DNA of 40,000 bases from Phenylobacterium sp. (GCF_041691455.1 NZ_JBEPUO010000007.1:97951-137950); one strand, 5' to 3'; counted from the stretch's first letter, positions 1 to 16,625 are shown. The notes: generated from the letters alone by a model not told the origin. A program made the numbers and translations.

Positions 1-593
1 GCTGGAGCGCGGCGCCAGGTTCGACCCCGTCAAACTCGCCGAGCGAGACGCGAGCCAATCCCGTTCGCGCAGCCGCTAGCCTAGAAGACTCGGAGGGCGT
101 GCAGGCCCCAGACGACGATCAGGGCTAGCGCCGCGCCGGCCGCCACGCCGCGCGCGAACGCTCCGTGTCGGCTCCACCACTGGCGGCGCGTGCGCAGGGT
201 CTGGGCGCGATCTGGACGGCGGCGGGGCATGGCGGGCGATGTGCCGAAGACAGCCGACAATTACAACGCCTTCCGGCACTAGAATGGGAAGCCGGACCGG
301 AGTGAGAGATGGCGCTACAGGCTCGACTATGGCCGATGGGGAGCGACCAAGGACCCGGATGGCTGCCCGGCGTGCAAAGCTCCATCCCCGCTCTCGCCGT
401 GGCGGGCAGCCCAGCTACGTGATGTCGCCGTCAAATACGGACGTAGTGCAGAGCATAGAATCGACATAGGAAAATATTTACTTCTGATTCTGGGCGAATC
501 ATTGGTCCTTAGTCCTGCAAGGACTGGGGTTCCGCGCACCGTGCGCGAGAAGCCTTTCCGCGAAGACTTCACTTGGATTGGGAGGGCGGGACT

Positions 594-875
594 ATGCCAG
601 CGTTTGACGTCGCGTATGTCCGCGAACAAGGCCAGAGCATGGTCATTGTTCCGCTGGACGGGCAGTTCGAACACAAGAGCGAAGCCACTCAGCGGAAGGT
701 CGCGGCTGAGCTCCAGGTGCGCGCTGCAGCCGCCGGGCTTGCCGGCAAGGTCGTGCTGATGTGGCGCGCCGGTAGTAGGACGAGGTTCATTGCCCCACCG
801 CAATGGCATGCCTTTTTCCGGAGCATCGACCTCTCCTGGGTGGCGATGAACATCAATAAGCGGCTGTCGTGGTGA
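594..875 (+). CDS. small hypothetical protein (93 aa) immediately upstream of the helicase-nuclease gene
   Basis: The ORF is in the track as 573..875. I prefer the internal ATG at 594 because a GGGAGG Shine-Dalgarno-like run lies about 8 nt upstream. Amino-acid composition is balanced (MPAFDVAYVREQGQSMVIVPLDG...). An AT-richer stretch precedes it. The stop is 29 nt before the helicase start. I recognise no family. Confidence 0.5.
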   Translation: MPAFDVAYVREQGQSMVIVPLDGQFEHKSEATQRKVAAELQVRAAAAGLAGKVVLMWRAGSRTRFIAPPQWHAFFRSIDLSWVAMNINKRLSW

Positions 876-904
876 GTTGGGCTTAGAGGCCTGGCGTCGG
901 CGAG

Positions 905-3900
905 ATGGCACAGCCTGGTCTGTTCGCCGACGAAGCGCCGGCTGTTGAGCTGAAGCTGCCGCAACTCACCTACGGACCCGTCAAGGCAGCCGCAGGCCAG
1001 ATCCGCGCGGTTCTGAGGAACGCCGAGACTGTATCGGCGATTTTGGTCGACGAAGTTCACGTCTCCGCCCGGGTCAAGGAGCCTCTCTACACGCTCCCCT
1101 CAGGCGAACGAGTGGTTGTGACAAGCCGCAGGGCGGCGCAGCGACCGAAAGATGCCGATGGCCTGCTCCTCAGGGATCTTGGCGGAGAGTTGACCTGGCT
1201 GAGCCACCGCGTGATTGACGAGTTGGAGGCGGACGCCGCGGCGCGCGGCTGGCCGAACGTGATCGAGGATCGTGCGCGGGAGTGGGACAATCAGTTCTCC
1301 TTTCGGACGGAGCAGCGAGAGGTCGATGGCGCGGTCGATCCCGCCAAGCGCGGCCTGCGCCCGCCGCAGATCGGCGCTCTACACGCGATCGGCGCGCATT
1401 GGAGTCTGAGCACCGCGACGGCCACTGTGGTCATGCCCACCGGCACCGGCAAGACGGAGACGATGCTCTCTGGGCTCGCGGCCTATGTCCGCAAGCCGAT
1501 GCTCGTCGTCGTGCCGTCCGATGCACTGCGCGGCCAGACAGCCGGGAAGTTCCTAACCTTCGGGCTGTTGCGTTTCCTCGGCGTGCTGGCCGCCGACGTC
1601 CCGAATCCCATTGTGGGGATCGTCACCAAAGTGCCGAAGAGCGTCGACGCGCTCGAGATTTTCGAGCGTTGCAACGTCGTCATCGGGACCATGGACTCCC
1701 TGGCCGACAGCGCCGCGGAACCGTTCTGGCCCGAAATCATCAACCGCATCGGCGTATTGGTTATCGACGAAGCGCACCACATCGGCGCCACGCGGTGGTC
1801 TCGCTTCCGAGAGGCGTTCGCTGGCAAGCCGATCCTGCAGTTTACGGCAACGCCGTTCCGGCGGGACGGCAACGTGGTCGATGGCCAGGTCATCTACAGC
1901 TACCCTCTGCGCACAGCGCAGGCGGATGGTTACTTCAAGCCGATCGCCTTTGAGCCGGTCTATGAAGCGGTCCCCGCCCGCGCCGACGAGGCGATTGCCG
2001 AGGCGGCGGTCGCCCGACTGCGGGCCGACCTCGCAGAGGGCCGTAACCATCTGATGATGGCGCGGTGCGTCAGCATCGATCGGGCGCGCGTCGTACAGGC
2101 AATCTACGCGCGGCTGGCGCCCGACCTGACTCCAATGCTGGTGCATTCGGACCTCACTGATGCGCCGCAACGCATCGCCGACCTGAGGGCCGGGAAGAGT
2201 CGTATCGTGGTCTGCGTCAACATGCTGGGGGAAGGGTTTGACCTGCCCCAACTTAAGATCGCGGCGATTCACGATCTGCACAAGAGCCTGGCGATCTTGT
2301 TGCAGTTCACCGGTCGCTTCACGCGAAGCGCGGCAGATGACATCGGCGACGCGACGGTGATTGCCAACGTGGCCGAGCCCAATGTGTCAATCGCGCTGGA
2401 GCGGCTCTACAGCGAGGACGCCGATTGGAACGAATTGCTCAGCGAGATGAGCTCTGAGGCGGCAAACGATCACGCCCGTCTGACAAAGTTTCTCAACGAG
2501 GCGAAGCGCCTGGATCACGGCGGCGACGACGAGGATGTGGCGGTCTCGCACAAGCTGCTTCGGCCCACACTGAGCACCCTGATCTATGAGGCCGACAAAT
2601 GGACGCCGCGGAAGTTCCACGAGGGTCTTCCGGCCGCATTGGTTCCCTATCGGGTGTGGCTGCATGAGCAATCCAGCAGCCTGTTCTTCGTCACACGGTC
2701 CGAGCCGACGGTGAAATGGAGCCGCTCGAAGGCCGTGAAAGATCGAACATGGACGCTCTTCATCCTGCACCATGATGCGCATCGAAAGCTGCTCTATCTG
2801 GCCTCAACCGATCACAAGATGAACTTTGATCGGTTGGCTCGAGAGGTTGGCGCCACGACGCAGTTGCGCGGGGATGTGGTCTTTCGCGCGATGGGCCGTA
2901 TCAACCGCCTGATCTTCCAGAATTTAGGTCTGAAGAAGCATGGCCGCCGGAACCTGTCCTATGCCTCCTACACCGGCGCCGAGGTAACCGAGGCGCTGAG
3001 CTTGGCCGAGAAGTCGGGCTCGGTGAAGGCGTTGCTGAGCGGCATCGGCTGGGAGAGCGGCAAGCAGGTCACCATCGGCTGCTCGGCAAAGGGGCGCGTC
3101 TGGTCGCGCGAGCAGGGCTCGGTGCCGCGGTTCAACGAGTGGTGCGAGGTGGTGGGAGACAAGCTCATCGACGTCGGCATCGACACCAGCAAGTTGATTG
3201 ACCACGTGCTGCTGCCGACGGTGGTGACGGACCTCCCTAGTGCGGAGCTTTTGAGCATCGAGTGGCCTGTAGAGATGCTCCGTCAGTCCGAAGAGCGGAT
3301 CGAGTTCTCGAACGGCTCGAATTCTGCCTCGCAGGCCACGTTTGAGCTTTCGATCATCGGGATGGATCGCTCCGCCAACGCAATCGACTTCGAACTGACC
3401 GAGGCGATGACGGGATCCTGGGGCCAGTTTCGGTTCTCCCTCGGCGGCCCAAACACCTTCGCCGTGGAACAGACCTCCGGCGATCGCGTGATGGCCCTGG
3501 TTGGCCGTATCGCGCAGGAGCTAGACGGATACTTCACGGAGTATCCGCCCCTCTTCCGGTTCGTCGACCTCTCCGAACTCGACGCCAACCTGCACATTGT
3601 TCCGCAGTCGCCGTACGATCTGAAGATCGAAGACGCCCGCTTCGAGGCCTGGGACTGGGCCGGCGTCGATATCACCAAGGAGTCGATGTGGAAGGCCGGC
3701 GTTCGTCGCGACGATTCCGTCCAATGGCACGTGGCGAAAGAATACATCGCGGCTGGGTTCGACGTCGTGTTTGACGACGACGCCAGCGGTGAGGCGGCCG
3801 ATCTTGTGTGCCTGAAGGTTGAGGACGAAGTCATTCGGTTGGCGCTGATCCACTGCAAGTTCTCAGGCGGCGCCACGGCCGGCGAACGGGTTAAGGATGT

Positions 3901-4219
3901 GGTCGAGGTGTCGTCGCAAGCGGTGCGTTCCGCCCGCTGGGTCGCAAAGCTCAGCCACCTTTGCCAGCATCTCAAATCGCGCGACGAAGCCCTGAAGGAA
4001 GGTGGTCGTCCCACGCGGTTTATGAAGGGAAGCGCTTCGGACCTGACCCGGATAATTAAGCTGAACCGGTTTCGACCGCTCCGGGCCGAAATTCTGATCG
4101 TCCAGCCTGGCCTTTCGGCCGAAACGCGCACGAACAGTCAGTCCGCTGTATTGGCGGCCGCACTGACATACCTAAAGGAGACGGTGGGGATCGATCTCCA
4201 CATCGTCTGTAGTGCCTAG
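905..4219 (+). CDS. SF2 DEAD/DEAH-box helicase (type III restriction Res-like core) with a long C-terminal extension ending in a PD-(D/E)xK-like nuclease module
   Basis: 1104-aa ORF. Helicase motifs read directly: VVMPTGTGKTETM (Walker A), VIDEAHHIG (DEAH), QFTATPFRRDG (III), VNMLGEGFDLP (V), QFTGRFTRS (VI). The C-terminus carries FDDDASGEAADLVCLKVEDEVIRLALIHCKFSGG, which resembles a D...(E/H)xK restriction-endonuclease-fold signature. The nuclease assignment is inference. Confidence 0.85.
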   Translation: MAQPGLFADEAPAVELKLPQLTYGPVKAAAGQIRAVLRNAETVSAILVDEVHVSARVKEPLYTLPSGERVVVTSRRAAQRPKDADGLLLRDLGGELTWLSHRVIDELEADAAARGWPNVIEDRAREWDNQFSFRTEQREVDGAVDPAKRGLRPPQIGALHAIGAHWSLSTATATVVMPTGTGKTETMLSGLAAYVRKPMLVVVPSDALRGQTAGKFLTFGLLRFLGVLAADVPNPIVGIVTKVPKSVDALEIFERCNVVIGTMDSLADSAAEPFWPEIINRIGVLVIDEAHHIGATRWSRFREAFAGKPILQFTATPFRRDGNVVDGQVIYSYPLRTAQADGYFKPIAFEPVYEAVPARADEAIAEAAVARLRADLAEGRNHLMMARCVSIDRARVVQAIYARLAPDLTPMLVHSDLTDAPQRIADLRAGKSRIVVCVNMLGEGFDLPQLKIAAIHDLHKSLAILLQFTGRFTRSAADDIGDATVIANVAEPNVSIALERLYSEDADWNELLSEMSSEAANDHARLTKFLNEAKRLDHGGDDEDVAVSHKLLRPTLSTLIYEADKWTPRKFHEGLPAALVPYRVWLHEQSSSLFFVTRSEPTVKWSRSKAVKDRTWTLFILHHDAHRKLLYLASTDHKMNFDRLAREVGATTQLRGDVVFRAMGRINRLIFQNLGLKKHGRRNLSYASYTGAEVTEALSLAEKSGSVKALLSGIGWESGKQVTIGCSAKGRVWSREQGSVPRFNEWCEVVGDKLIDVGIDTSKLIDHVLLPTVVTDLPSAELLSIEWPVEMLRQSEERIEFSNGSNSASQATFELSIIGMDRSANAIDFELTEAMTGSWGQFRFSLGGPNTFAVEQTSGDRVMALVGRIAQELDGYFTEYPPLFRFVDLSELDANLHIVPQSPYDLKIEDARFEAWDWAGVDITKESMWKAGVRRDDSVQWHVAKEYIAAGFDVVFDDDASGEAADLVCLKVEDEVIRLALIHCKFSGGATAGERVKDVVEVSSQAVRSARWVAKLSHLCQHLKSRDEALKEGGRPTRFMKGSASDLTRIIKLNRFRPLRAEILIVQPGLSAETRTNSQSAVLAAALTYLKETVGIDLHIVCSA

Positions 4220-4324: not shown

Positions 4325-5350
4325 TCAACGTGATCGCTCCTTGCCACCTCCGTCCTCCGACCGTTCCGGCGCCAGCGCCCGATTGGAGGCTCGAAGGTCA
4401 CGCGCCAATGCCAACCGCTGGCTGTCCGGCGCCGGCATGTCGCGGACGAAGCGTTCCACGGCCTGCCCCAAGGCCCTGTCAGCGGAGTCGGCGGACATTT
4501 TCAGAAGACCCGCTTGCGCCAGGTAAAGGGCGCGAACCTGCGCCTGCCGGCGCAGCATCTGCGCCTCCCACGGCGTCGGCGCGGTCTCACCTTGAAATGC
4601 CGCCCGCGCCGCGTCGCGATAGGCGCCTCGGCGAACCTCGGCGATCGGCCCGTGGCCGGCTGCGTACCGCTCGCCGATCTTGCGCACCGGGGCCCGCTCG
4701 GACTTCCGGGTCACGCCCCGCGCGCGCCGCGGCGTGGCTTCGGCTTCAACTCCTCGATCACGCAACGCCCGCGCGAACCCCTCCCGCCATTCTGTGAGGT
4801 CGGCCTTCTTTGGATTGAGCCGGCGCCCGTCGTCGCCCAGCGCCCGCACCGCCAGATGCACGTGCGGATGGCCGGTGTCGGTGTGTAGCACAAAGGCGTA
4901 GTCGAACCGCTCGCCGAAGGTCTCTCGGGCAAAGCTGCGCGCTGCGTCGCGCATCGCCACTGCATCGGTCGCTGCCGGCATCGAGAGCACGATCGACAGG
5001 CTGACCGGCGAATTGGCGCGCCACCTCGGGTCGCTCATGGCCGCCGCGCTCCAATCCAGCGCCAGCGCCCGCACGTCGTCCCGACCTGAGAGCATGACGC
5101 CATCGCGATCTTCGGCCTCAAGGTCCCCGTGTCGGGTGATGTAGTCCAGGTGAGCCAGCAGTTGGCCGGGATCCCGCGTCCGCCCGGTCACTTTCACCAT
5201 CACTTCCGGCGTGCGGTTGACCAGCCGCACAAGCCGAGCCCGCACTGCGGATTCCCCGCTGCCGAGCACTTCTTCAGGGGTCCGTCGGCGCGGACGGACC
5301 GGCGGACGCCACACATCCTCGAAGCCCGCGACGGTCTGGAAGTCGCTCAC
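4325..5350 (-). CDS. relaxase / mobilisation nuclease (MobA/VirD2-type)
   Basis: 341 aa. It has the histidine triad HTDTGHPHVHLAV (HxDx..HPHxH) and an N-terminal LDYITRHG tyrosine motif, both typical of the Relaxase family. The GTG start overlaps the upstream mobC stop (GTGA). Confidence 0.85.
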   Translation of the reverse strand: MSDFQTVAGFEDVWRPPVRPRRRTPEEVLGSGESAVRARLVRLVNRTPEVMVKVTGRTRDPGQLLAHLDYITRHGDLEAEDRDGVMLSGRDDVRALALDWSAAAMSDPRWRANSPVSLSIVLSMPAATDAVAMRDAARSFARETFGERFDYAFVLHTDTGHPHVHLAVRALGDDGRRLNPKKADLTEWREGFARALRDRGVEAEATPRRARGVTRKSERAPVRKIGERYAAGHGPIAEVRRGAYRDAARAAFQGETAPTPWEAQMLRRQAQVRALYLAQAGLLKMSADSADRALGQAVERFVRDMPAPDSQRLALARDLRASNRALAPERSEDGGGKERSR

Positions 5351-5868
5351 GGCTCACCCGCCCAATAGGCCAGATTGCCAGCGAAGGCTGACTGCAGCCC
5401 ACGGAGGTGGCCGCGCATCTCGCGCCGCAAATCGTCTAGCGCCCCCAACTCCAGATCCAGCACACGGCCCTCCATCACCGCCGTATTCAAGGCACGGGCG
5501 ATCTGGTTCACGTTGACGCCAATCCGGCGCAACTCGGTCTGGATGGCTATCAGCGACACGGCGTCCGAACCTGCAAACGTCGGCCGGTCCCGAAGCCGCC
5601 GCCGCAGCACGGCGGCGGCCCAGGCGTTGCGGGTAAGCCCGGTCTCAGCCGCCGCGACGTCCAACCCGATGACATCCGCGGCGCTCAGTCGAACGGTGAG
5701 TTTCACGGGAAAGGGGGCGTGCGCGGCGTGCGAAGCCATCTCTCGACTCGCGCCCACCGCACCCACCATCAATTGCCGCAAGGCCACTGAGCGACCGCCG
5801 CGCGCCGAAGCCCAAGCGTCGAAACGGGCCGCCAGGTCGTCGTCCAGCCGCACGTTGAAGATCGCCAA
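5347..5868 (-). CDS. mobC: MobC-type relaxosome accessory protein (RHH-like N-terminus)
   Basis: 173 aa. GVNVNQIARALN matches the MobC signature (G.N.NQ.AR..N). The N-terminus, FNVRLDDDLAARFDAWA, looks like a ribbon-helix-helix. The TTG start has GAGAGGG 5 nt upstream. The gene is translationally coupled to the relaxase. Confidence 0.8.
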   Translation of the reverse strand: MAIFNVRLDDDLAARFDAWASARGGRSVALRQLMVGAVGASREMASHAAHAPFPVKLTVRLSAADVIGLDVAAAETGLTRNAWAAAVLRRRLRDRPTFAGSDAVSLIAIQTELRRIGVNVNQIARALNTAVMEGRVLDLELGALDDLRREMRGHLRGLQSAFAGNLAYWAGEP

Positions 5869-5950
5869 ACCGCCCTCTCGCGTAAGACACCGCCGCCGCC
5901 AAGGCTATCCTGCCCTCAACCGCTGCCGCTGACTTTGGCCCCTCCCCTCG

Positions 5951-5986
5951 GCCCGGGCGACGCGCAACCCTACGCGTCGCCCGGGC
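5951..5986. repeat. perfect 14-bp inverted repeat with an 8-nt spacer; candidate oriT
   Basis: GCCCGGGCGACGCG (5951-5964), caacccta, CGCGTCGCCCGGGC (5973-5986). It lies 83 nt upstream of mobC in the mobC/SRAP intergenic region. The repeat is seen directly. The oriT function is inferred from position. Confidence 0.5.
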
Positions 5987-6106
5987 TACCCGCCGCCCCT
6001 GGCGGGACGCCCCAGCCGGGCCTAGTCACAGACACAACCGTGGTGGCGTCGACAGCCAGGTCTGGGCTTGTCATATGCCTCGGTCGACAACGGAGAGACC
6101 GCCCGC

Positions 6107-6841
6107 ATGTGCAACCTCTACGCCATGATGCGCAGCCGAGCGGAGGCCGCGCAGTTGGCCCGCGCCTTCTCCGACGTGAACAACAATCAGCCGCCGATGT
6201 CGGGGGTCTTCCCCGACTATCCCGCCCCGATCATCGCCAAGACGCCGGGCGGCGAACGGCAGATGCGCGACGTCCGCTGGGGGATGCCGTCCTCCAAGAA
6301 CGCCATGTTCGAAGCCGCCAAGAAGCGCGCGGGCAAGCTTCGGGAAAAGGGTCAGGAGGTCGATTTCAATGAGTTGCTGCGGATGGAGCCCGACAAGGGC
6401 ACGACCAACATCCGCAACACCGCCAGCAAGCACTGGCAGCCCTGGCTTGGCCCGAGCAGCCGCTGCCTCGTGCCGTTCACCTCCTTCAGCGAGCCCGACC
6501 AGGTCGGCGGCACTCTGCAGCCCATCTGGTACGCGCTGGACGAGGCGCGACCGCTGGCCTTCTTCGCCGGCGTCTGGACGCCCTGGACCTGCGTTCGGAA
6601 GATCAAGGAGGGCGAGGTGAGCTGCGACCTTTTCGGCTTCCTCACCACCGAGGCCAACGCCGAGGTCGCCCGGCACCATGACAAGGCCATGCCGGTGATC
6701 CTCACCGAGCCCGCCGACTGGGACCTTTGGATGGGCGACGCCCCCTGGACCGAGGTGCAGCACCTGCAGCGCCCCCTTTCCGATGGGGCTCTGAAGATCG
6801 TCGCGCAGGGTCCACGGGAGGATGAGACCGCTCCCACGTGA
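6107..6841 (+). CDS. SOS-response-associated peptidase (SRAP / YedK-HMCES family)
   Basis: The track ORF starts at a TTG at 6068. The internal ATG at 6107 gives the family-defining N-terminus MCNLY with catalytic Cys2. The length (244 aa) is typical of the family. Confidence 0.85.
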   Translation: MCNLYAMMRSRAEAAQLARAFSDVNNNQPPMSGVFPDYPAPIIAKTPGGERQMRDVRWGMPSSKNAMFEAAKKRAGKLREKGQEVDFNELLRMEPDKGTTNIRNTASKHWQPWLGPSSRCLVPFTSFSEPDQVGGTLQPIWYALDEARPLAFFAGVWTPWTCVRKIKEGEVSCDLFGFLTTEANAEVARHHDKAMPVILTEPADWDLWMGDAPWTEVQHLQRPLSDGALKIVAQGPREDETAPT

Positions 6842-6866
6842 ACGGGGCGCGTGAGATGCGCGGCGG

Positions 6867-7202
6867 CTAGACGTCGCCGCTCGGCGGCGACCACCGCCAC
6901 GGCAGATCATAGAGATGCGGGAACACCGCCACGTCCTTCGCGCCGCATCCGCCGGCGCCGGCGCACGACAGTCGCTCGGCGAGATCGGCGATCCGCAGGT
7001 CGAGGCGGTCGCCGAAGCGGCGCTCCAACTCCGGCGGCGTCCACTCGATCAAGCGTGGACAATCTCGGCAGCAGATCGCCAGCGAAAAACCCCGCCGCAG
7101 ATAGGTGCGCACGGTGTCGTTGCCGATCTGCGCGATCTTGAAGGTCTTCAGGAGCCGGTCTGGCGGCCGCTCCAAGGTCGAGGTGGGGTTCAACGACGCC
7201 AC
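6867..7202 (-). CDS. small Cys-rich (zinc-ribbon-like) hypothetical protein, tandem paralogue B
   Basis: This is the C-terminal part of track ORF 6867..7451. A GTG at 7202 lies just after the upstream gene's stop, with the two codons adjacent (TGATCGTG) rather than overlapping. The sequence ...RGFSLAICCRDCPRLIEWTPPELERRFG...LSCAGAGGCG shares the C-x2-C ... C-x2-4-CG layout with 7205-7402 and 38682-38990. The start is uncertain. Confidence 0.45.
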   Translation of the reverse strand: MASLNPTSTLERPPDRLLKTFKIAQIGNDTVRTYLRRGFSLAICCRDCPRLIEWTPPELERRFGDRLDLRIADLAERLSCAGAGGCGAKDVAVFPHLYDLPWRWSPPSGDV

Positions 7203-7204
7203 GA

Positions 7205-7402
7205 TCAGATCCAGGCCCGCGCGAAGCCGACGCGACCGCACGCGGTGCAACTCAGCCGCCGCCGGATGTCGAACGGCATGGCGTCGGGCCCCAGGCGCGC
7301 GAAGGCCTGCCCGCAGGTCCACGTGACCTGGTGTCCGCAGGCGCAGATGATCTTCAAGGTCGCGGCGCCCCTCATCATTCGGCGAAGGTTCTGGAACATC
7401 AT
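7205..7402 (-). CDS. small Cys-rich (zinc-ribbon-like) hypothetical protein, tandem paralogue A
   Basis: 65 aa from the ATGATG at 7402: MMFQNLRRMMRGAATLKIICACGHQVTWTCGQ...LSCTACGRVGF. The N-terminal part of track ORF 7205..7495 overlaps the ardC 3' end and the hairpin, so I excluded it. Confidence 0.5.
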   Translation of the reverse strand: MMFQNLRRMMRGAATLKIICACGHQVTWTCGQAFARLGPDAMPFDIRRRLSCTACGRVGFARAWI

Positions 7403-7435
7403 GCCGTAAGAACAAATACAGAACTTCTGCGCTAT

Positions 7436-7465
7436 GGCGAGTCCTGGCCACCGCCAGGACTCGCC
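7436..7465 (-). terminator. perfect 12-bp stem / 6-nt loop hairpin directly after ardC
   Basis: GGCGAGTCCTGG ccaccg CCAGGACTCGCC. It begins 10 nt after the ardC stop on the minus strand. A moderately T-rich stretch (TTCTGTATTTGTTCTT) follows only after about 12 nt, so its function as an intrinsic terminator is uncertain. Confidence 0.3.
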
Positions 7466-7475
7466 ACCACGTCGG

Positions 7476-8375
7476 CTAGGGCTCGGCCGTTGCAACCCCC
7501 GACAGCAGGTCGCAGGCCCGCTGGGCGTGCGCCGCCGCAGCGAAGATCGACCGGTGATCGGCCTTCATCACCTTGAGCCAACCGGCGAGGTAGCTGGCGT
7601 GGTCCTCACGTGGCCGCAGCGAGACCCCTAGGTCGGCGCACAGAAAGGCCGCGCCCAGCTCGGCCACCAGTTCCTCCCGAGCATAGCGGTTGTCACCGGT
7701 TCGCGGCGCGCCGAACTCGCGGTCGAGGCGGGAAGCGTGGCCCGTCCAATGGGTCAGCTCGTGCAGCAAGGTGGCGTAGTAGTCCTCCAACTCCGGGAAG
7801 GCCGCGAGCTTCGGCATCTGCACGTAGTCGGGGCCGGGCGCATAGTAGGCGCGATCACCGCCGTGCCGGACCGCCGCGCCGGTCGAGGCGACGAACGCCT
7901 CCACCGCCGCAATCCGCCGCTCGGCCGAAACCGCCAGCGCGGGAGCGGGCGCATAGACCGCGGGCAGGCTGTCGATCTGCCCGACGTTGAAGACCGTGTA
8001 GGCCTTGAGGAAGGGGATGCTGCGGAGCCCGTCGTCACCCGCGGGCGCATCGGGGTCCTCGCGGACGATGCGATTGGCGTAGACCACCGTCGCGCCATGC
8101 TCGCCTTTGCGGACGTGGCCGCCCAGCGCCAAGGCCTGGCGGAAGGTCATCCAGGTGGGTGCGGCGTACCCGCGCTCGAAAGCCTCGGCCCACAGCAGCA
8201 GGACATTGATCCCGCGGTAGGGTTCGCCGGAATGGCGCAGCGGCCGACCGACGGGCCCCCCGGCGCCGCTGGCCCAAGGCTTCGTCCAGGGCCGGACGCC
8301 GCGTTCGAGATCGGCAACGATGGCGTCGGTGACGCGGGTGTAGAGGGGACGTGTTTCCGTAACGGGGCGCGCCAT
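7476..8375 (-). CDS. ardC: ArdC-type antirestriction protein (ssDNA-binding N-domain plus zincin metalloprotease domain)
   Basis: 299 aa. The N-terminal pattern VRPWTKPW...PYRGINVLLLW matches ArdC-N (DUF1738). The C-terminal LLHELTHWTGH is an HExxH-type metalloprotease motif. Confidence 0.85.
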   Translation of the reverse strand: MARPVTETRPLYTRVTDAIVADLERGVRPWTKPWASGAGGPVGRPLRHSGEPYRGINVLLLWAEAFERGYAAPTWMTFRQALALGGHVRKGEHGATVVYANRIVREDPDAPAGDDGLRSIPFLKAYTVFNVGQIDSLPAVYAPAPALAVSAERRIAAVEAFVASTGAAVRHGGDRAYYAPGPDYVQMPKLAAFPELEDYYATLLHELTHWTGHASRLDREFGAPRTGDNRYAREELVAELGAAFLCADLGVSLRPREDHASYLAGWLKVMKADHRSIFAAAAHAQRACDLLSGVATAEP

Positions 8376-8449
8376 GGCGGCCTCCTGTCATCCAGATTTC
8401 TGAGAGGAAGAGGTCGCCCCGTCGGTGACGGGGCGCCTCAGGTTCGGGC

Positions 8450-8761
8450 TCAGCGGGCGGAGCGGCTGCGGGACCAGATGAGGTTGTAACCCTCGTCGGC
8501 ATCCATCAGGGACGCGTAGATCTCCCGCGGGAAGCTGGGGTCGTCGAGCTTGACCGAGAGGTAGGCCCGTTGCTCGGCGGAGGTCTTCTTCCACGCCGCT
8601 CCCAGCTCGACCTTGCCGGCGAAGATGCGGTAGTCGGGGGCTTCGGGGCTGGTCTTGTCGTTGGGCCGGAAGGCCACGGACTTGACGTTGAGGCTGAGCG
8701 TGTTGATCGCGCCGGTGTAGGCGCCGTCGGCGGTTTGGGTGAAGGTTCCGATGGTCGACAT
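8450..8761 (-). CDS. DUF736-family protein (common ICE/plasmid backbone gene)
   Basis: 103 aa from the ATG at 8761, with AAGGAGA 7 nt upstream. [27 protein letters not shown]...[19 protein letters not shown]...YNLIWSR matches the DUF736 consensus as I remember it. The rest of track ORF 8450..9007 is an unsupported 5' extension. Confidence 0.8.
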
Positions 8762-9123
8762 GGTGAAGTCTCCTTGCTCAAGCGAGGCCGCCCGTTGCGG
8801 CCGCGATGGCGATCGAGAGACCCGGCCGGACAGCGCCGGCGCAGACGAAGTCCCGCAGCGGAGCGGAGGACGGTGACGGCGGGCTTTCTTGCCTCGCGAG
8901 GAATGGGGCCGAAGGGCCCAGGGGAGGAAAGCCGGCCAAGCCGTTGCGGCGACGCCCGGCCAGGTCCAGATCACGTCAGAGCGGCTGCCACGGCGCGTCC
9001 CGCTCAAAGGAAGACGCCGCTCCCCGACTCAGAGAGACTCAAGCAAACCGTGGATGTCGCGCCGGCCCGAACCAGAGCAGACTGCCCTCCCCCACGGCGA
9101 AGGCCAACCGGACCCACGACCAG

Positions 9124-10029
9124 GTGAAGACCAGCCTCGACCAACTGCCGGACGCCAAGCGACGCGAACTCACCCGCGTCGTGGAGATCCTGTTCGCCGA
9201 GTTCGAGGACGCCCTCAAGGGCCGCAACGCCCCTCACCGCAAAGCCGGGCGGATCCTCAAGATCATCCTGTTCGGAAGCTACGCGCGTGGCGACTGGGTC
9301 GACGATCCCAAGGGGGGCTACAAGTCCGACTACGACCTGCTGGTGGTGACCAACCACGAGGAACTCGCCGACCTCCAGGAATACTGGGGCAAGGCCGACG
9401 ACCATCTTCTGCGGGCCTACCAGATCGGCCACGAGCTCACCGCGCCGGCGCACTTCATCGTCCACGACCTCATCGACGTGAACAAACAGCTGAAGCGGGG
9501 CCGGCCGTTCTTCGTCGATATCGTCCGCGACGGCATCGCGCTCTACGAAGCGCCGGACCACCCGTTCGAACATGCCGAGCCGCTCTCGGCCGAAGAGGCA
9601 CTAACGGAAGCGCAGGGTTATTTTGAGGACTGGAATGCCAAGGCTCCGAGCGCGCTCAAACTCGCTCGGTTCGCTATCAGCGAGAATGAGTTCAAGGACG
9701 CCGCCTTCCTGCTCCACCAAGCAACGGAGCGCCTCTATCACTGCGCCCTGTTGGTCCTGACCCTCTACAGCCCGAAGTCCCACAAGCTGAACTTCCTGCG
9801 CTCTCAGGCTGAGCGACTGGTCCCGCTCCTCATCGCTGCGTGGCCGCGCGACACGCGGTTCGAACAGCGCGCCTGGGAGCTCCTACGCCGAGCCTACGTC
9901 GATGCCCGCTACTCGAAGCACTACAAGATCTCCGCCGAGGAACTGGCCTGGCTCGCCGAGCGAGTCGCCATTCTTCAAGAGACGGTTCGCCTGGTCTGCG
10001 AGGAGCATCTCGCAAAGGGACAGCCCTGA
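9124..10029 (+). CDS. fused minimal nucleotidyltransferase (MNT) plus HEPN domain protein
   Basis: Start is the GTG at 9124 (VKTSLDQLPD...). The upstream 106 codons of track ORF 8806..10029 are Arg/Gly/Pro-rich junk. NTase motif: LFGSYARGDW...SDYDLLVV (GS...DxD). The C-terminal helical domain carries SPKSHKLNFL and YVDARYSKHY, resembling HEPN (PF05168-type) signatures. Confidence 0.8.
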   Translation: MKTSLDQLPDAKRRELTRVVEILFAEFEDALKGRNAPHRKAGRILKIILFGSYARGDWVDDPKGGYKSDYDLLVVTNHEELADLQEYWGKADDHLLRAYQIGHELTAPAHFIVHDLIDVNKQLKRGRPFFVDIVRDGIALYEAPDHPFEHAEPLSAEEALTEAQGYFEDWNAKAPSALKLARFAISENEFKDAAFLLHQATERLYHCALLVLTLYSPKSHKLNFLRSQAERLVPLLIAAWPRDTRFEQRAWELLRRAYVDARYSKHYKISAEELAWLAERVAILQETVRLVCEEHLAKGQP

Positions 10030-10243
10030 CGGACGTCGGCAGCCCACGGTAACCGGGCTTCTTCCGCCGTGCGTCAGCCCGTATGCTGGCAACGTCGGGC
10101 GCCGGGACATAGGCGCGGGTCTTGAGCCGGGATGCGTCGGAGACGCCGCATCGGCAGCGGCCCAAGCTGAAGCACCGGGCCGCCATAGCTGGACGGTTTC
10201 CAACGCCCGACCCCTTATCTCTCCGACGGAACCGGAGGCGGCG

Positions 10244-10873
10244 CTAGGGACGTCCGCCAGCCCAGATCAGGAAATCGAGCTTCTTGACCGGGTGGATACT
10301 CGAGGCGCCGGCCACAGCCGCGAACTGCGCGTCGAACTGGTCGCACCACGCGCGCGCCGCCGTGGTCTGGCTCAGCGCAGTCATCACCTCCTGCAGCCAG
10401 TCGTAGTAAGTCACCGCCTCTTCGGACCCGGCCCCGAACCGTGGGGCTGGCATCCGAGCGGCCAGAAACTCGCGGATGACACTGTCGAGCACTGGGGCCT
10501 CTGGGCGAAGTGTCGCCACGAGCTTGCTCACGAACGAGGCCTCAACCCGCCCGGTCTCCCTCTCGACCGCCGCCAAAGCCCAGCGGAACAGGGCGGCCGG
10601 GTCGGGGCCCCGCTGCTTGGCCGCCTCGAAGGTCGCGTAGAAGACAGACCGCCAAGCGGCGTTCCGCCGAACGCCATAGAAGCCGTTGAACTTTCGTTGG
10701 AAGTCGGCCGCGGCTGGACTGGCGAGATCAAGCCTTGAGCCGCTGTCGGCCAGGTCCAGGTAGAGCTCGATGGGCCCGGGACGACGGCGGGCCAGCAGAT
10801 CGCTGGCCGCCGGCATCAGCACCGGCAGCGCCCCGGCCAGGTCGGCCACATTGTCCGCGATCGCTCCGCCCAT
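10244..10873 (-). CDS. hypothetical protein, divergent from the dpd modification operon
   Basis: The track ORF is 10244..10921. The ATG at 10873 has GGGAGGG 6 nt upstream and is preferred (209 aa). Composition is balanced (FQRKFNGFYGVRRNAAWRSVFYATFEAAK...). I recognise no family. Confidence 0.5.
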   Translation of the reverse strand: MGGAIADNVADLAGALPVLMPAASDLLARRRPGPIELYLDLADSGSRLDLASPAAADFQRKFNGFYGVRRNAAWRSVFYATFEAAKQRGPDPAALFRWALAAVERETGRVEASFVSKLVATLRPEAPVLDSVIREFLAARMPAPRFGAGSEEAVTYYDWLQEVMTALSQTTAARAWCDQFDAQFAAVAGASSIHPVKKLDFLIWAGGRP

Positions 10874-11115
10874 GGCCGCCCTCCCGCAGTTCGATGTCGC
10901 CGGTTCATTGGATCGGCGCAAGCCGTGCCGGGTGGACCCCTTGCCCCGGCGGTGTAGAAGACCCGCCCGCTGTCGAATCGCGGCAGAATTTCTGAAGCAC
11001 GCGGCAATAACTGTGCGCTCTTCCGCGAATCAAATGCGTGGGAAACTGCAGAGGATCGAGGGCTTCGGAACAGATATAACTGTCGGCCCCTATCGACGGA
11101 GACAACGCAGAGATC

Positions 11116-12030
11116 ATGACGGCGACCGTCATCACCATGTGCAGCAACCGCAAGCGAGGCGACCCCGCCGCCGACCTGTCGGCCGCAGGGCTTGCCCGAG
11201 GAACCGCGGACGCCGTGGCGGCGGTCTGGGGGCGACGACTGGTCCAAGCCCCCTGCGCGCTGACCGCCCGCCAACTGTATGGCGGCCGTGGCTTTCGGGA
11301 AGCGGAAGCCGCCGCCGAGGCTCAGGGCGGGGCGTTTTTGGTGGTGTCGGCCGGCCTCGGCCTGGTCGCTGCGGATGCGGCGGTCCCGGCCTACGGCCTG
11401 ACCCTGCTGGCCAGCCACGCGGATGGCATCTTGGGAAAGATCGACGACGACGAGGCCTCGGCCTGGTGGCGCGCCCTGACGTCCGTATCCCCCTTCCACA
11501 GCCCCGACATTCCGGGACGCGGGCTCATTTTGGCGGCGCTCTCGGCCCCCTACATGGCGATGGTGGCCGACGACTGGGCGGGGTGGCCCGCGGAGCGGTT
11601 CGCGCGGCTGCGAGTATTCAGTAAGTCCCCGCCGGTCGGCGCGGCGGCCGCGCTCGCGCCGGCGTGGATGCCTTACGACGACCGACTGGACGCCATCGGT
11701 CCGGGACACGCGGGGACGCAGGCCGACTTCGCCCAGCGCGCACTCCGGCACTTTGCGGTCACGTTCACGACGTCCAGCCGCGGCGCACCATCCGACGCCG
11801 CGGCCGTGCGGGCCGGGCTGCAGGGCCTGACCGAGCGCGAACGCCCGGAACGGAAGCGCCTTGACGATGCTGACCTGCTCGCGCTGATTTCCGCGGAGTG
11901 GGACGCAGCCGGGGGGCGGTCGGGGGCCATGCTGCGACGGCTGCGCGACGACCTGCACATCGCCTGTGAACAGTCCCGGCTGAAGACACTGTTCAAGACG
12001 GTGGCCGCGTCCAGAGGGTCAGCGTCATGA
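11116..12030 (+). CDS. dpdC: DpdC-like protein (YaaA/DUF328-like); predicted preQ0-DNA to amido-deazaguanine (ADG) conversion
   Basis: 304 aa. The pattern VITMCSNRK / ARQLYGGRGF / LVVSAGLGLVAADAAVPAYGLTL parallels the YaaA motifs ISPAK / Y.G / LSGLYGVLRPLD..PYRLEM. It is the first gene of the operon, and its stop overlaps the dpdB start (ATGA). The assignment rests on pattern plus context. Confidence 0.55.
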   Translation: MTATVITMCSNRKRGDPAADLSAAGLARGTADAVAAVWGRRLVQAPCALTARQLYGGRGFREAEAAAEAQGGAFLVVSAGLGLVAADAAVPAYGLTLLASHADGILGKIDDDEASAWWRALTSVSPFHSPDIPGRGLILAALSAPYMAMVADDWAGWPAERFARLRVFSKSPPVGAAAALAPAWMPYDDRLDAIGPGHAGTQADFAQRALRHFAVTFTTSSRGAPSDAAAVRAGLQGLTERERPERKRLDDADLLALISAEWDAAGGRSGAMLRRLRDDLHIACEQSRLKTLFKTVAASRGSAS

Positions 12031-13130
12031 CCCGGGGTGAGCAGGTCATCGTGCGGGCGCTTCGAACGCGCCAGGCCACGTCGATCGACGTCTATGAATT
12101 CTTCATCCGCGGCGCCCAGGTCGCGCAGATCGCCGACATCTCGCGGCTGCGGCGCGGCGACGGCGAGCTCGAAGGGTTCCAGCGGCGGGAGATCAAGTCC
12201 CACGTGGCGGAGATCGCCGAGTTCCTCGCCCAGGGGCCCGTGCTGTTCCCCAACGCGATCATCCTGGCCCTGTCGCCCGAGGTCCGCTTCGAGCAGTCCC
12301 GCGGCCCCAAGATCGGCGACGACGCGGTGATCGCCGGTAAACTCTCTCTGCCACTGCGGCCGGAAGGCCAACGCGCCGCCTGGATTGTCGACGGCCAGCA
12401 GCGCTCGCTGGCGCTCGCCAAGGCGAAGGACTGCGACCTCCTGGTGCCGGTGGTGGCGTTCGTTTCCGCCGATGTGGCGGTGCAGCGGGAGCAGTTCATT
12501 CTGGTGAACAAGGCGCGGCCGTTGCCTCCGCGCCTGATCGACGAGCTCCTGCCGGAGATGACCCTGGCCCTCCCCCGGGACTTGAAGGCCCGGCAGGTGC
12601 CGAGCGCCCTGTGCAGCGCCCTGCACGACGATCCGAAGTCGCCATTCCATGGCCTGATCAAACGCGGCTCCGAACCGGGCGCGCCCACCGCCGTCGTCAC
12701 CGACCGGGTGCTGATCGACACGCTGGTGGGCAATCTGCGCGCCGGTGGCGCACTGGGGGCCTACCGCGCCGGCGACGGACTTGAGCCGCTGCACGAAGCG
12801 CTCTGCACCTACTGGCAGGCGGTTCGCGAGGCCTTCCCGGACGCTTGGGGGCGGCCTGCGGGCGACAGCCGGCTGATGCACTCCGCCGGGATCCGCGCCA
12901 TGGGCGCGCTGATGGACCCGGTCTGGACCCGCGCCGACGCTACCGCCGATCCGGCGTCGCATGTGCGGGAGTCCCTGGCGCGCCTGGCCCCCTATTGTCG
13001 CTGGACCGAGGGGGTCTGGGGCGACTTGGGGTGGGGCTGGAACGACCTTCAGGCGACCTCAAGACACATCAAGGGCCTCACCGAATATCTGTTGCAGCTC
13101 GACCGCAGCCTCGCGCGGCCTTCGCGATGA
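12027..13130 (+). CDS. dpdB: DGQHR-domain (DndB/ParB-like) protein, DpdB
   Basis: 367 aa. Motifs: WIVDGQQRSLAL (DGQHR motif), GFQRREIKSHVAEIAEFL, LFPNAIILAL, QFILVNKARPLP. ATGA overlaps occur with both neighbouring genes. Confidence 0.8.
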   Translation: MTRGEQVIVRALRTRQATSIDVYEFFIRGAQVAQIADISRLRRGDGELEGFQRREIKSHVAEIAEFLAQGPVLFPNAIILALSPEVRFEQSRGPKIGDDAVIAGKLSLPLRPEGQRAAWIVDGQQRSLALAKAKDCDLLVPVVAFVSADVAVQREQFILVNKARPLPPRLIDELLPEMTLALPRDLKARQVPSALCSALHDDPKSPFHGLIKRGSEPGAPTAVVTDRVLIDTLVGNLRAGGALGAYRAGDGLEPLHEALCTYWQAVREAFPDAWGRPAGDSRLMHSAGIRAMGALMDPVWTRADATADPASHVRESLARLAPYCRWTEGVWGDLGWGWNDLQATSRHIKGLTEYLLQLDRSLARPSR

Positions 13131-16623: not shown

Positions 16624-16625
16624 AC
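16612..16625. repeat. perfect 14-bp palindrome GTTCAGGCCTGAAC containing the stop codons of both convergent genes (queC and the dpdD-like gene)
   Basis: Read directly. On each strand the palindrome reads GTT CAG GCC TGA, so both proteins end in V-Q-A-stop. The two coding regions overlap by 10 bp (16614-16623). Confidence 0.9.

What the first reader, a model, noticed from the sequence alone, without database searches (positions are those of the whole stretch)
573..4219. Stand-alone helicase-nuclease fusion (1104 aa) with a small upstream partner ORF: candidate second defence system
Seen: a full SF2 helicase core (GTGKT, DEAH, QFTGRFTR) is followed by about 600 aa ending in GEAADLVCL...LALIHCKFSGG, a D...(E/H)xK-like nuclease pattern. 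A 93-aa ORF with a good SD sits 29 nt upstream, behind an AT-richer stretch that contains a small hairpin (AGTCCT gca AGGACT, 511-525). No methylase or specificity gene is adjacent.

Inference: the architecture, an N-terminal SF2 helicase with a C-terminal nuclease in one polypeptide, resembles single-gene abortive-infection or defence proteins such as Hna from Sinorhizobium. I cannot confirm homology. The small ORF could be a regulator, an antitoxin-like partner or a sensor.
Basis: partly seen in the sequence, partly recalled or inferred. Interest (0 to 1): 0.65.

Follow-up and report, generated by a model that had tools for sequence, protein, structure and literature searches.

The report
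Orphan helicase–nuclease defence candidate, not Hna
A 1104-residue protein that joins a DNA-motor (helicase) to a probable DNA-cutting domain belongs to a large, unstudied family found alone in bacterial "immune islands" and mobile DNA. It is a credible new anti-phage or anti-plasmid gene, but it is unrelated to the known Hna protein, and the small gene upstream is not its partner.

Summary
ORF 905-4219 encodes a 1104-aa protein with intact SF2 motifs (GTGKT, DEAH, TAT, QFTGRFTR), and a 93-aa ORF (594-875) ends 29 nt upstream.

The large protein belongs to a big uncharacterised family. The C-terminal 604 aa alone match 1375 clusters at 50% identity. The family has a fixed plan: N-terminal beta domain, XPB/RadD-like motor, a roughly 350-aa middle module with no credible fold match, and a C-terminal alpha/beta domain. 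In 95 independent relatives at 29-44% identity, E926, Q940, D958, D959, E963, D966, H983, K985 and Q1005 are all invariant. They sit on a PD-(D/E)xK-like beta2/beta3 core (D...HxK).

The gene is accessory (16 of 5426 E. coli genomes). It has no conserved neighbour and lies among integrases, relaxases, restriction-modification (R-M), Gabija, Septu, CBASS, DISARM-like and Azaca genes. In this window it sits on a mobile element beside a complete Dpd system.

It is not Hna: only the Walker-A region aligns, and Hna has a DinG/XPD-type second helicase domain. No Pfam, NCBIfam, PADLOC or PDB entry covers residues 500-1104.

The small ORF is a real gene with only two relatives. One lies in a helicase-free context. 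The other sits on a contig too short to tell. Even 82-84% identical helicase homologues lack it.

Verdict: a plausible new single-gene helicase-nuclease defence family. Its function is untested.

The parts
440..510 (.). AT-richer intergenic stretch, a possible promoter region for the small ORF and helicase
   Evidence: 40.8% GC against 68.4% for the window. No sigma-70 consensus was found.
511..525 (+). Small perfect hairpin AGTCCTgcaAGGACT
   Evidence: Present. It is one of 37 such hairpins in the window, so it is not significant. A second one lies at 533-547.
594..875 (+). 93-aa ORF. It is a real gene but not a conserved partner of the helicase.
   Evidence: It has a good Shine-Dalgarno sequence (GGAGG). 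NCBI lists it as a hypothetical protein (P0270). Two relatives are 66% and 54% identical. Differences fall mainly at third codon positions (56 against 28 and 21), with 39 synonymous codon changes. It is absent next to every other helicase homologue examined.
905..4219 (+). Gene for the 1104-aa helicase-nuclease-like protein
   Evidence: A 100% identical NCBI protein is named 'DEAD/DEAH box helicase [Phenylobacterium sp.]'.
941..1279 (+). N-terminal beta-rich domain plus two helices (aa 13-125). Function unknown; possibly a sensor or DNA-binding domain.
   Evidence: The AlphaFold2 model gives pLDDT of about 90 here. The domain is present across the family at low identity, with P19 and W98 invariant. 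It has no Pfam or PHROG match.
1352..2374 (+). SF2 motor core (aa 150-490): RecA1 with GTGKT, DEAH and TAT, and RecA2 with QFTGRFTR
   Evidence: Pfam ResIII 8.7e-21, DEAD and Helicase_C. The nearest solved relatives are XPB 3e-15, RadD 4.5e-14 and SauUSI 3e-10. All motif residues are invariant or nearly invariant (at least 94 of 96 sequences).
2567..3604 (+). Beta-rich middle module (aa 555-900) with no credible fold match. It includes the loop KHGRRNL at nt 2936-2956.
   Evidence: pLDDT is mostly 85-95. It has no Pfam, PHROG or PDB match by sequence or fold. It shows weak fold resemblance to phage RdgC-like proteins, which profile comparison does not confirm.
3641..4216 (+). C-terminal alpha/beta domain (aa 913-1104), a PD-(D/E)xK-like putative nuclease: D958-D959, E963, D966 (before beta2), H983-C-K985 (end of beta3), Q1005xxRSxxW1012 (next helix)
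   Evidence: Secondary-structure order alpha939-949, beta954-957, beta967-972, beta977-984, alpha996-1012. Residues E926, Q940, D958, D959, E963, D966, H983, K985, Q1005, R1026 and Q1067-P1068 are invariant in 96 of 96 sequences.

Best explanation
The gene encodes a stand-alone, single-polypeptide ATP-driven DNA translocase fused to a PD-(D/E)xK-type nuclease. It belongs to a large, so far uncharacterised family that travels as cargo on plasmids, integrative elements and defence islands.

The most likely function is to restrict or degrade invading phage or plasmid DNA. In the proposed mechanism, the N-terminal and middle domains engage DNA. The XPB/RadD/HsdR-like motor uses ATP to track along it. 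The C-terminal domain (D966, H983, K985 with E963, D958 and D959) then cuts.

The protein has no methylase or other conserved partner, so self and non-self discrimination must be built in. The most plausible route is autoinhibition relieved by a foreign DNA structure or a phage protein, as shown for the unrelated helicase-nucleases Hna, DdmD and DruE.

Shown here: intact and invariant ATPase and C-terminal residues, a fixed four-part architecture, single-gene status, and an accessory, mobile, defence-island distribution.

Inferred: nuclease activity, DNA as the substrate, the defence role and the mode of activation.

The upstream 93-aa gene is an unrelated small mobile-element gene.
For: Motor domain. 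The ATPase motifs are intact and are invariant or nearly invariant (at least 94 of 96) in the window protein plus 95 representatives at 29-44% identity, and in 42 diverse sequences. The helicase core is closest to the dsDNA translocases XPB, RadD, Mfd, HsdR and SauUSI.

C-terminal domain. It is modelled with high confidence (pLDDT 86, pTM 0.78) and has an alpha-beta-beta-beta-alpha core. An invariant D lies before beta2 and an invariant HxK in beta3. A non-significant hhalign alignment places H983-C-K985 on Hna E727-C-K729 and QxxRSxxW on Hna EQMNRSAAW. K729 is the catalytic lysine of Hna (PMC13381803). Foldseek gives a weak hit to the CdiA-CT EC869 toxin, a PD-(D/E)xK-type DNase from my own knowledge.

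Fixed architecture. The C-terminal 604 aa match 1375 representative clusters, and the best 150 listed are full-length 1000-1100 aa proteins or shorter fragments aligning in the same C-terminal register, with no other architecture among them.

No conserved neighbour among 65 loci from more than 10 phyla.

Neighbouring genes include integrases (8 in total), TrwC relaxases, type IV secretion (T4SS) coupling proteins, Mrr, EcoRII and EcoRI methylase, type III Res, Gabija GajA/B, Septu PtuA, CBASS cyclase with a 2TM effector, DrmA/D, ZacB/C, AbiJ and HipA.

Accessory distribution: 16 of 5426 E. coli genomes, in tRNA-Phe and tRNA-Leu integrase islands. In one of these the gene starts 7 nt after hsdS of a type I R-M system. 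Homologues occur in 71 plasmid records and in only 2 of 50,697 phage records.

In the window the gene lies beside relaxase, MobC, ArdC and a complete Dpd system.
Against: No experiment exists for any member of the family.

The nuclease assignment rests on topology and invariant residues only. No significant sequence or fold match to any nuclease was found in Pfam, PADLOC, PDB by profile or PDB by Foldseek. The canonical acidic residue of (D/E)xK is His.

No PADLOC v2 model covers more than the helicase core.

Some neighbours are ordinary housekeeping genes such as SecA and ArgJ. I computed no formal enrichment statistic against a background.

The self/non-self mechanism is pure inference by analogy.
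Confidence: 0.6

Rival explanations
1. The protein is an ATP-dependent, modification-dependent (type IV-like) restriction enzyme. The N-terminal or middle domain reads modified bases on incoming DNA, the motor translocates and the C-terminal nuclease cuts. This would resemble SauUSI with the domain order reversed, or an orphan type III Res.
For: The helicase profile matches SauUSI over aa 90-474 at 3e-10, and PADLOC mREase_IV at 9e-9. There is no methylase partner. The gene often adjoins R-M genes: hsdS 7 nt upstream in E. coli CU42ET-1, an Mrr gene 2 nt downstream in L077, and type III Res in L028. One source names a homologue 'type III restriction endonuclease subunit R'.
Against: No known modified-base reader domain (SRA, EVE, YTH, PUA and similar) was detected by Pfam. 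The PLD nuclease of SauUSI and the RE_endonuc domain of Res are absent. The REase_III models do not hit. Fold search found no reader-like match.
Confidence: 0.2
2. It is a two-gene system in which the 93-aa upstream protein is a regulator, antitoxin or sensor for the helicase-nuclease.
For: The two genes are on the same strand with a 29-nt gap. They have similar GC (61.7% and 62.7%) and similar GC3, both lower than the rest of the window. The small ORF is a real gene under purifying selection.
Against: There is no small-ORF homologue upstream of any of 65 genome loci and no recurrent upstream ORF family. It is absent from the 84% and 82% identical relatives. It has only two relatives among 5.8 billion proteins. 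One lies in a helicase-free context; the other sits on an 855-nt contig too short to tell. E. coli and Klebsiella homologues are stand-alone.
Confidence: 0.05
3. It is not an immune gene. It would be a DNA repair, recombination or element-maintenance helicase, RadD-like or XPB-Bax1-like, carried by mobile elements to process their own DNA. Conserved surface or ligand-binding residues could then explain the invariant C-terminal positions without any nuclease activity.
For: The best structural and sequence relatives of the core are the repair proteins RadD, XPB, UvrB and Mfd. The middle module weakly resembles RdgC-like recombination-associated phage proteins. In the window the gene lies next to relaxase, MobC and SRAP. 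No nuclease family match is significant.
Against: Distribution is patchy, at 0.3% of E. coli genomes. The neighbours vary and there is no conserved repair or conjugation partner. Known defence systems are dense among the immediate neighbours. The gene is nearly absent from phages. The invariant D/E/H/K constellation on a restriction-endonuclease-like core is typical of a catalytic site.
Confidence: 0.15

Closest known systems
Hna (SMa2245, Sinorhizobium meliloti), a single-gene helicase-nuclease abortive-infection system
   Same: Both are single polypeptides with an N-terminal SF2 ATPase and a C-terminal PD-(D/E)xK-type domain. Both stand alone on a mobile replicon and are widespread. A non-significant alignment puts H983-C-K985 on Hna E727-C-K729 and QxxRSxxW on EQMNRSAAW.
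   Different: Hna is 845 aa, with a DinG/XPD-like helicase carrying Helicase_C_2 (PMC13381803). The window protein is 1104 aa and XPB/RadD-like with a standard Helicase_C. It also has an extra N-terminal domain and a roughly 350-aa middle module. Only the Walker-A region aligns, at E 0.005. The window protein has HxK where Hna has ExK.
Type III restriction Res subunit and type ISP enzymes
   Same: They share the domain order ResIII-type SF2 translocase then C-terminal PD-(D/E)xK endonuclease, a similar size (about 1000 aa), and occasional R-M neighbourhoods. One homologue carries this name in a source record.
   Different: There is no Mod methylase partner and no RE_endonuc (PF19778) or REase_III model match. 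The middle module is unrelated.
SauUSI (type IV ATP-dependent restriction enzyme, PDB 7CLG)
   Same: It is a single-protein ATP-dependent nuclease-helicase. Its helicase core is the longest sequence match in the PDB, aa 90-474 at 3e-10.
   Different: SauUSI has an N-terminal PLD nuclease and a C-terminal modified-cytosine reader. The window protein has a C-terminal PD-(D/E)xK-like domain and no recognised reader.
DdmD (DdmDE) and DruE (Druantia III) helicase-nuclease effectors
   Same: Both are SF2 helicases fused to a nuclease that act as DNA-degrading immune effectors. The published mechanism of an autoinhibited dimer activated on foreign DNA is the model borrowed here (bioRxiv 10.1101/2024.05.10.593530; 10.64898/2026.05.13.724313).
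   Different: These need partners (DdmE, DruH), and DruE is much larger. No PADLOC DruE match and no PDB sequence match was found. The window family has no conserved partner.
Archaeal XPB-Bax1 and bacterial RadD
   Same: These are the closest helicase cores by sequence and fold. XPB works together with a nuclease (Bax1).
   Different: They are repair factors, and the nuclease is a separate protein. No Bax1 (DUF790) similarity was detected by Pfam or Foldseek.

Membership tests
SF2 helicase/translocase (ResIII/DEAD + Helicase_C) | Walker A (GxGKT), DExH, motif III (TAT) and motif VI (QxxGRxxR) on two RecA-like domains | tested here: met
   Pfam ResIII 8.7e-21, DEAD 5e-12 and Helicase_C 5.5e-7. 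Motifs verified by translation. Motif residues are invariant or nearly invariant (at least 94 of 96 sequences). Two RecA folds appear in the model.
Hna | DinG/XPD-like SF2 helicase (Helicase_C_2 type second domain, reduced Arch) | tested here: not met
   Hna (L082:12345-14882, 845 aa) hits PF13307 Helicase_C_2. The window protein hits PF00271 Helicase_C, and its nearest relatives are XPB and RadD.
Hna | Sequence homology to SMa2245 over the whole length | tested here: not met
   BLASTP aligns only 98 aa around Walker A, at 27% and E 0.005. Neither family appears among the listed hits of the other's search.
Hna | C-terminal PD-(D/E)xK nuclease with a catalytic ExK lysine (K729) | tested here: inconclusive
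   hhalign aligns H983-C-K985 to E727-C-K729, but at E 0.023 (single sequence) and 0.25 (40-sequence profile), with probability below 3%.
Hna | Single gene sufficient for abortive-infection phage resistance | not testable with these tools
   Genomic single-gene status is met, with no conserved neighbour. The phenotype needs experiments.
PD-(D/E)xK nuclease superfamily | [quoted passage not shown] | tested here: inconclusive
   The topology is present in a high-confidence model, and D966 and K985 are invariant. The middle residue is His (H983), which is non-canonical.
PD-(D/E)xK nuclease superfamily | Significant profile or fold match to a known member | tested here: not met
   No match in Pfam, NCBIfam or PADLOC. 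The C-terminal profile against PDB gave nothing. The best relevant Foldseek PDB hit is CdiA-CT 4g6u at probability 0.57 and E 0.07. Only 1 of 24 members gave a weak HamA hit, at E 0.22.
Type III R-M Res subunit | Adjacent Mod methylase, a RE_endonuc C-terminal domain and a REase_III profile match | tested here: not met
   No methylase lies nearby. There is no PF19778 hit and no REase_III hit.
Dpd system component (DpdE/F/J helicases) | Full-length match to a Dpd helicase model and a position inside the dpd cluster | tested here: not met
   Only 23 residues hit DpdE, at E 7.7e-4. The real DpdE, F and J lie at 19-34 kb, separated from this gene by the relaxase, MobC and ArdC genes.
Hma (HmaA) and Hachiman (HamA/HamB) | Snf2 helicase plus NOV_C (HmaA); DUF1837 nuclease plus HamB helicase (Hachiman) | tested here: not met
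   There are no NOV_C, HmaA, HamA or HamB hits at E<=0.1. HmaA architecture is described in PMC11232893.
RdgC-like DNA-binding fold (middle module) | Fold and profile similarity to RdgC (PF04381) | tested here: inconclusive
   Foldseek against BFVD (predicted structures of viral proteins) hits several RdgC-like phage proteins at probability 0.9-1.0, but with TM 0.27-0.41 and E of 2.5e-3 or weaker. There is no Pfam hit. hhalign against an RdgC alignment gives E 0.04 over 25 columns. No RdgC structure is named among the top 50 PDB matches.

The most novel reading that the evidence does not exclude
This is the first look at a new, widespread single-gene immune family. It would combine an XPB/RadD-like dsDNA translocase, a previously undescribed (possibly RdgC-like, DNA-encircling) middle module, and an HxK-variant PD-(D/E)xK nuclease. 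On this reading it acts alone against phages or plasmids, with built-in self/non-self discrimination. The family spans more than 1300 clusters at 50% identity and more than 10 phyla, and includes E. coli and Klebsiella plasmid copies.
Probability: 0.45. Interest if true: 0.65.

Novelty: new variant of a known kind. Interest (0 to 1): 0.5.

Why it matters
If the family is a defence system, it adds a widespread single-protein helicase-nuclease that current annotation does not recognise. PADLOC v2, Pfam and NCBIfam see only a generic 'DEAD/DEAH box helicase'.

The family includes copies on clinical Klebsiella and E. coli plasmids and in E. coli restriction hotspots. It would therefore affect phage-therapy host range and plasmid transfer.

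About 600 residues have no credible match to solved structures, so the protein may show a new way of coupling DNA translocation to cleavage and of telling self from foreign DNA without a methylase.

The work also corrects two tempting mis-annotations. The protein is not an Hna homologue, and the upstream small ORF is not part of a system.

Tried and rejected
Hna homology. I fetched SMa2245 from pSymA and compared it directly and by profiles. Rejected as family membership.

Small ORF as partner. Tested by tblastn against 65 loci, ORF clustering, a homologue search and context look-ups. Rejected.

Known defence families. PADLOC, Pfam, NCBIfam and PHROGs gave hits to the helicase core only.

PDB sequence searches. 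I searched with the protein and with profiles of the full length, the middle module and the C-terminus. Nothing matched beyond residue 500.

Foldseek. The full-length model hit only helicase cores. The C-terminal 565 aa had no credible PDB match.

RdgC lead from the BFVD search. I followed it with an E. coli RdgC sequence and a 15-sequence RdgC alignment. It was not confirmed and is kept only as a hint.

PLD (HxK) reading of H983-x-K985. Rejected by eye: there is no D four residues after the Lys, no GSxN, and only one HxK.

Conserved 421-aa downstream gene seen in E. coli. It is absent from the other loci and from the window.

Other checks. The promoter and terminator scan found nothing. Literature searches by E. 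coli and Klebsiella accession numbers, 'helicase-nuclease' plus 'defense system', DefensePredictor and RdgC found no paper describing this family.

Full report
**Observation.** The window contains ORF 905..4219 (+), 1104 aa. A small ORF ends 29 nt upstream (ATG 594..875, 93 aa; an alternative TTG start lies at 573). It has a GGAGG Shine-Dalgarno sequence 8 nt before its ATG. Translation confirms GTGKT, DEAH, TAT, QFTGRFTR and the C-terminal strings DDASGEAAD, HCK and QAVRSARW. The stretch 440-510 has 40.8% GC against 68.4% for the window. The hairpin at 511-525 exists but is one of 37 equally good hairpins in the window, so it carries no weight. No consensus promoter or terminator stands out. 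No methylase or specificity gene is adjacent. The one qualification is that the 'nuclease pattern' is D...HxK, not D...(D/E)xK.

**What the large protein is.**
- Pfam, NCBIfam, PADLOC and PHROGs recognise only the SF2 core, aa 144-509.
- A 100% identical NCBI protein is annotated merely as 'DEAD/DEAH box helicase [Phenylobacterium sp.]'.
- The family is large and architecturally fixed. There are more than 4700 hits, and the 120 listed cover at least 91% of the query.
- The C-terminal 604 aa alone retrieve 1375 clusters at 50% identity. The best 150 listed are 1000-1100 aa proteins or shorter fragments, all aligning in the same C-terminal register.
- Genome loci come from Alpha-, Beta- and Gammaproteobacteria, Bacteroidota, Planctomycetota, Verrucomicrobiota, Acidobacteriota, Actinomycetota, Bacillota, Saccharibacteria and others.

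**Structure.** An AlphaFold2 model (pLDDT 81) shows four parts:
- a beta-rich N-terminal domain (aa 13-125);
- two RecA domains (aa 150-490);
- after a long helix, a beta-rich middle module (aa 555-900);
- a C-terminal alpha/beta domain (aa 913-1104).

A second model covers aa 540-1104 (pLDDT 86, pTM 0.78). By sequence profile and by fold, the motor is closest to XPB, RadD, Mfd, UvrB, HsdR and SauUSI. No solved structure matches anything beyond residue about 500, either by sequence or credibly by fold.

**Is the C-terminus a nuclease?**

*Evidence for.* The predicted element order is alpha939-949, beta954-957, beta967-972, beta977-984, alpha996-1012. This is the restriction-endonuclease-like core. 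D966 sits immediately before the second strand, H983-C-K985 at the end of the third, and Q1005 in the following helix. I aligned the window protein with 95 further full-length representatives at 29-44% identity. In all 96 sequences, E926, Q940, D958, D959, E963, D966, H983, K985, Q1005, R1026, Q1067 and P1068 are invariant. The ATPase residues K183, D288, E289, H291, T316, R471 and R474 are also invariant in all 96, and T184, T314 and Q467 in 94-95 of them.

*Evidence against.* No nuclease family is matched significantly, and His replaces the usual acidic residue.

*Hints.* A non-significant hhalign alignment places H-C-K on the E727-C-K729 motif of Hna, whose K729 is catalytic (PMC13381803). 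It also places QxxRSxxW on Hna EQMNRSAAW. Foldseek gives a probability-0.57 hit to CdiA-CT EC869.

I read the domain as a divergent PD-(D/E)xK nuclease. That is an inference, not a demonstration.

**The middle module.** Foldseek against predicted viral structures returns several RdgC-like 'recombination-associated' or 'exonuclease' phage proteins. Probabilities are 0.9-1.0, but TM-scores are low (0.27-0.41) and E-values are 2.5e-3 or weaker. Profile comparison with E. coli RdgC and with a 15-sequence RdgC alignment gives only a 25-column, non-significant match. No RdgC structure is named among the top 50 PDB Foldseek matches. The resemblance is therefore only a lead. The KHGRRNL loop, invariant among close relatives, is not conserved in distant ones.

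**The small ORF.** It is a genuine gene. NCBI annotates it, and two relatives are 66% and 54% identical. Differences concentrate at third codon positions (56 against 28 and 21), with 39 synonymous codon changes.

It is not a partner of the helicase family:
- tblastn finds it upstream of none of 65 loci.
- No upstream ORF family recurs.
- The 84% (Mesorhizobium) and 82% identical relatives lack it.
- One of its two relatives lies beside a divergent XRE-type repressor and an ImmA-like (HExxH) gene, with no helicase. The other lies on an 855-nt contig beside an ORF whose start looks SIR2-like by eye.

No conserved neighbour of any kind exists for the helicase. A 421-aa membrane protein that follows it in E. 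coli is not found elsewhere.

**Context.** In the window the gene is followed by a relaxase, MobC, SRAP, ArdC, DUF736 and a fused nucleotidyltransferase-HEPN protein. A complete Dpd 7-deazaguanine system then follows: DpdB, DpdA, DpdB, DpdD, DpdJ, DpdH, DpdG, DpdF and DpdE, at 12-34 kb. The gene is thus cargo on a mobilisable element. It is not a Dpd component, since only 23 residues match DpdE.

I scanned 127 immediate neighbours of 200 aa or more from 52 loci.
- Pfam shows eight integrases, TrwC relaxases, T4SS coupling proteins, resolvases, Mrr, EcoRII, EcoRI and other methylases, type III Res, MutH-like, AbiJ and HipA.
- PADLOC shows ZacB/C, DrmA/D, CBASS cyclase with a 2TM effector, TmtA, PDC-S28, BrxH, HmaA, PtuA (three), GajA/GajB (two to three), REase_III and PDC-M62A.
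- Housekeeping genes also flank some loci, as expected for small islands.

Distribution figures:
- Homologues occur in 71 of 72,556 plasmid records, including Klebsiella IncFIB/HI1B and E. coli IncF plasmids where the gene is flanked by IS (insertion sequence) elements.
- They occur in 16 of 5426 complete E. coli genomes, inside tRNA-Phe or tRNA-Leu integrase islands.
- In strain CU42ET-1 the gene starts 7 nt after hsdS of an intact type I R-M system. In EC556 and A19 the R-M genes have decayed but the helicase is intact.
- Only 2 of 50,697 phage records carry it.

This is the distribution of an accessory, horizontally moving gene associated with immunity. It is not that of a housekeeping helicase. 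I did not compute a formal enrichment statistic.

**Mechanism, with the level of support for each part.**

*Shown:* a conserved, presumably active SF2 ATPase of the dsDNA-translocase type; an invariant catalytic-looking constellation on a nuclease-like fold; single-gene status; and a mobile, defence-island context.

*Inferred:* the protein binds DNA through its N-terminal and/or middle domains, translocates with ATP and cleaves with the C-terminal domain. Because there is no methylase or partner, discrimination must be intrinsic. The most likely route is autoinhibition relieved by a foreign DNA structure or protein, as in Hna (ATP-stabilised inhibited dimer, opened by phage SSB; PMC13381803). 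DdmD and DruE are also autoinhibited dimers that are activated on target DNA (bioRxiv 10.1101/2024.05.10.593530; 10.64898/2026.05.13.724313).

A type IV-like, modification-dependent mode is the main mechanistic rival. A non-immune repair or maintenance role is less likely.

**Comparison with known systems.** The protein may well work like Hna, Res or SauUSI, but it is not a member of any of them.
- Hna is 845 aa with a DinG/XPD-type Helicase_C_2 domain, and only its Walker-A region aligns.
- Res needs Mod and has RE_endonuc.
- SauUSI has a PLD nuclease.
- HmaA has Snf2 plus NOV_C (PMC11232893).
- Hachiman, Druantia and Dpd models do not match.

Literature searches found no description of this family.

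**Verdict.** This is a real feature and was correctly noticed. Calling it a stand-alone helicase-nuclease defence candidate is reasonable and is now better supported. It is best classed as a new variant of a known kind, the single-protein helicase-nuclease immune effector. It has about 600 residues with no credible structural match. Interest is moderate, at 0.5. It is a solid, testable candidate family with E. coli representatives, but it has no functional data and is not surprising in kind.

Noticed in passing
window 12027-33994: A complete Dpd (7-deazaguanine DNA modification and restriction) cluster. It comprises DpdB (12027-13130), DpdA (about 13127-14416; the listed TTG start at 12845 is probably too early), a second DpdB (14413-15528), and on the minus strand DpdD, DpdJ, DpdH, DpdG, DpdF and DpdE. 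The two DpdB copies flank DpdA.
   Followed up: partly
window 4325-10029: A mobile-element backbone between the helicase and Dpd. It holds a MobA/VirD2-type relaxase (4325-5350, minus strand), MobC/NikA-like (5347-5868, minus), SRAP (6068-6841), ArdC anti-restriction (7476-8375, minus), DUF736 (8450-9007, minus) and a fused nucleotidyltransferase+HEPN protein (8806-10029). The Brevundimonas loci L004 and L011 share the relaxase and MobC downstream of their helicase homologue.
   Followed up: partly
L081 5702-16700 (E. coli CU42ET-1); L079, L080: In E. coli the helicase homologue starts 7 nt after hsdS of an intact type I R-M operon in a tRNA-Leu island, and a 421-aa membrane-like hypothetical gene follows it. 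In strains EC556 and A19 (tRNA-Phe island, next to symE and cdi remnants), hsdR and hsdM are pseudogenes while the helicase and the 421-aa gene remain intact.
   Followed up: partly
L077 8527-9735: In the 82% identical metagenomic relative, an Mrr_cat restriction-endonuclease gene starts 2 nt after the helicase stop codon. Mrr_cat also appears in two other neighbourhoods.
   Followed up: no
window 594-875; L066 3969-4253; L078 468-806: The 93-aa protein family has only three members among 5.8 billion proteins. One follows a divergent XRE repressor plus an ImmA-like (HExxH) pair, together with further tiny ORFs. Another lies opposite a gene whose start looks like a SIR2-type N-terminus. Its function is unknown. 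It may be a small early gene of mobile elements.
   Followed up: partly
window 1-4219 vs 16000-31000: The small ORF and the helicase gene have 62-63% GC, clearly below the window mean (68%) and the Dpd genes (70-75%). This suggests a separate, more recent acquisition of this end of the element.
   Followed up: no
window 533-547: A second perfect 6-bp/3-nt hairpin, CGCGCAccgTGCGCG, lies 8 nt after the first, just upstream of the small ORF. By count alone it is not significant (37 in the window).
   Followed up: no
window 9902-11624 and 35852-37453: ORFs 9902-10738 and 10770-11624 have no Pfam match. The 533-aa ORF at 35852-37453 (minus strand), just beyond DpdE, has no PADLOC match. All remain unexplained.
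   Followed up: no
phage records CAKLQH020000001.1 / CAKLQF020000001.1 (about 165.8-167.6 kb): The only phage-collection matches to the C-terminal 604 aa are two 330-380 kb 'Acinetobacter phage MD-2021a' records, where the gene is annotated as uvrB_1. These may be jumbo phage, phage-plasmid or mis-binned records.
   Followed up: no
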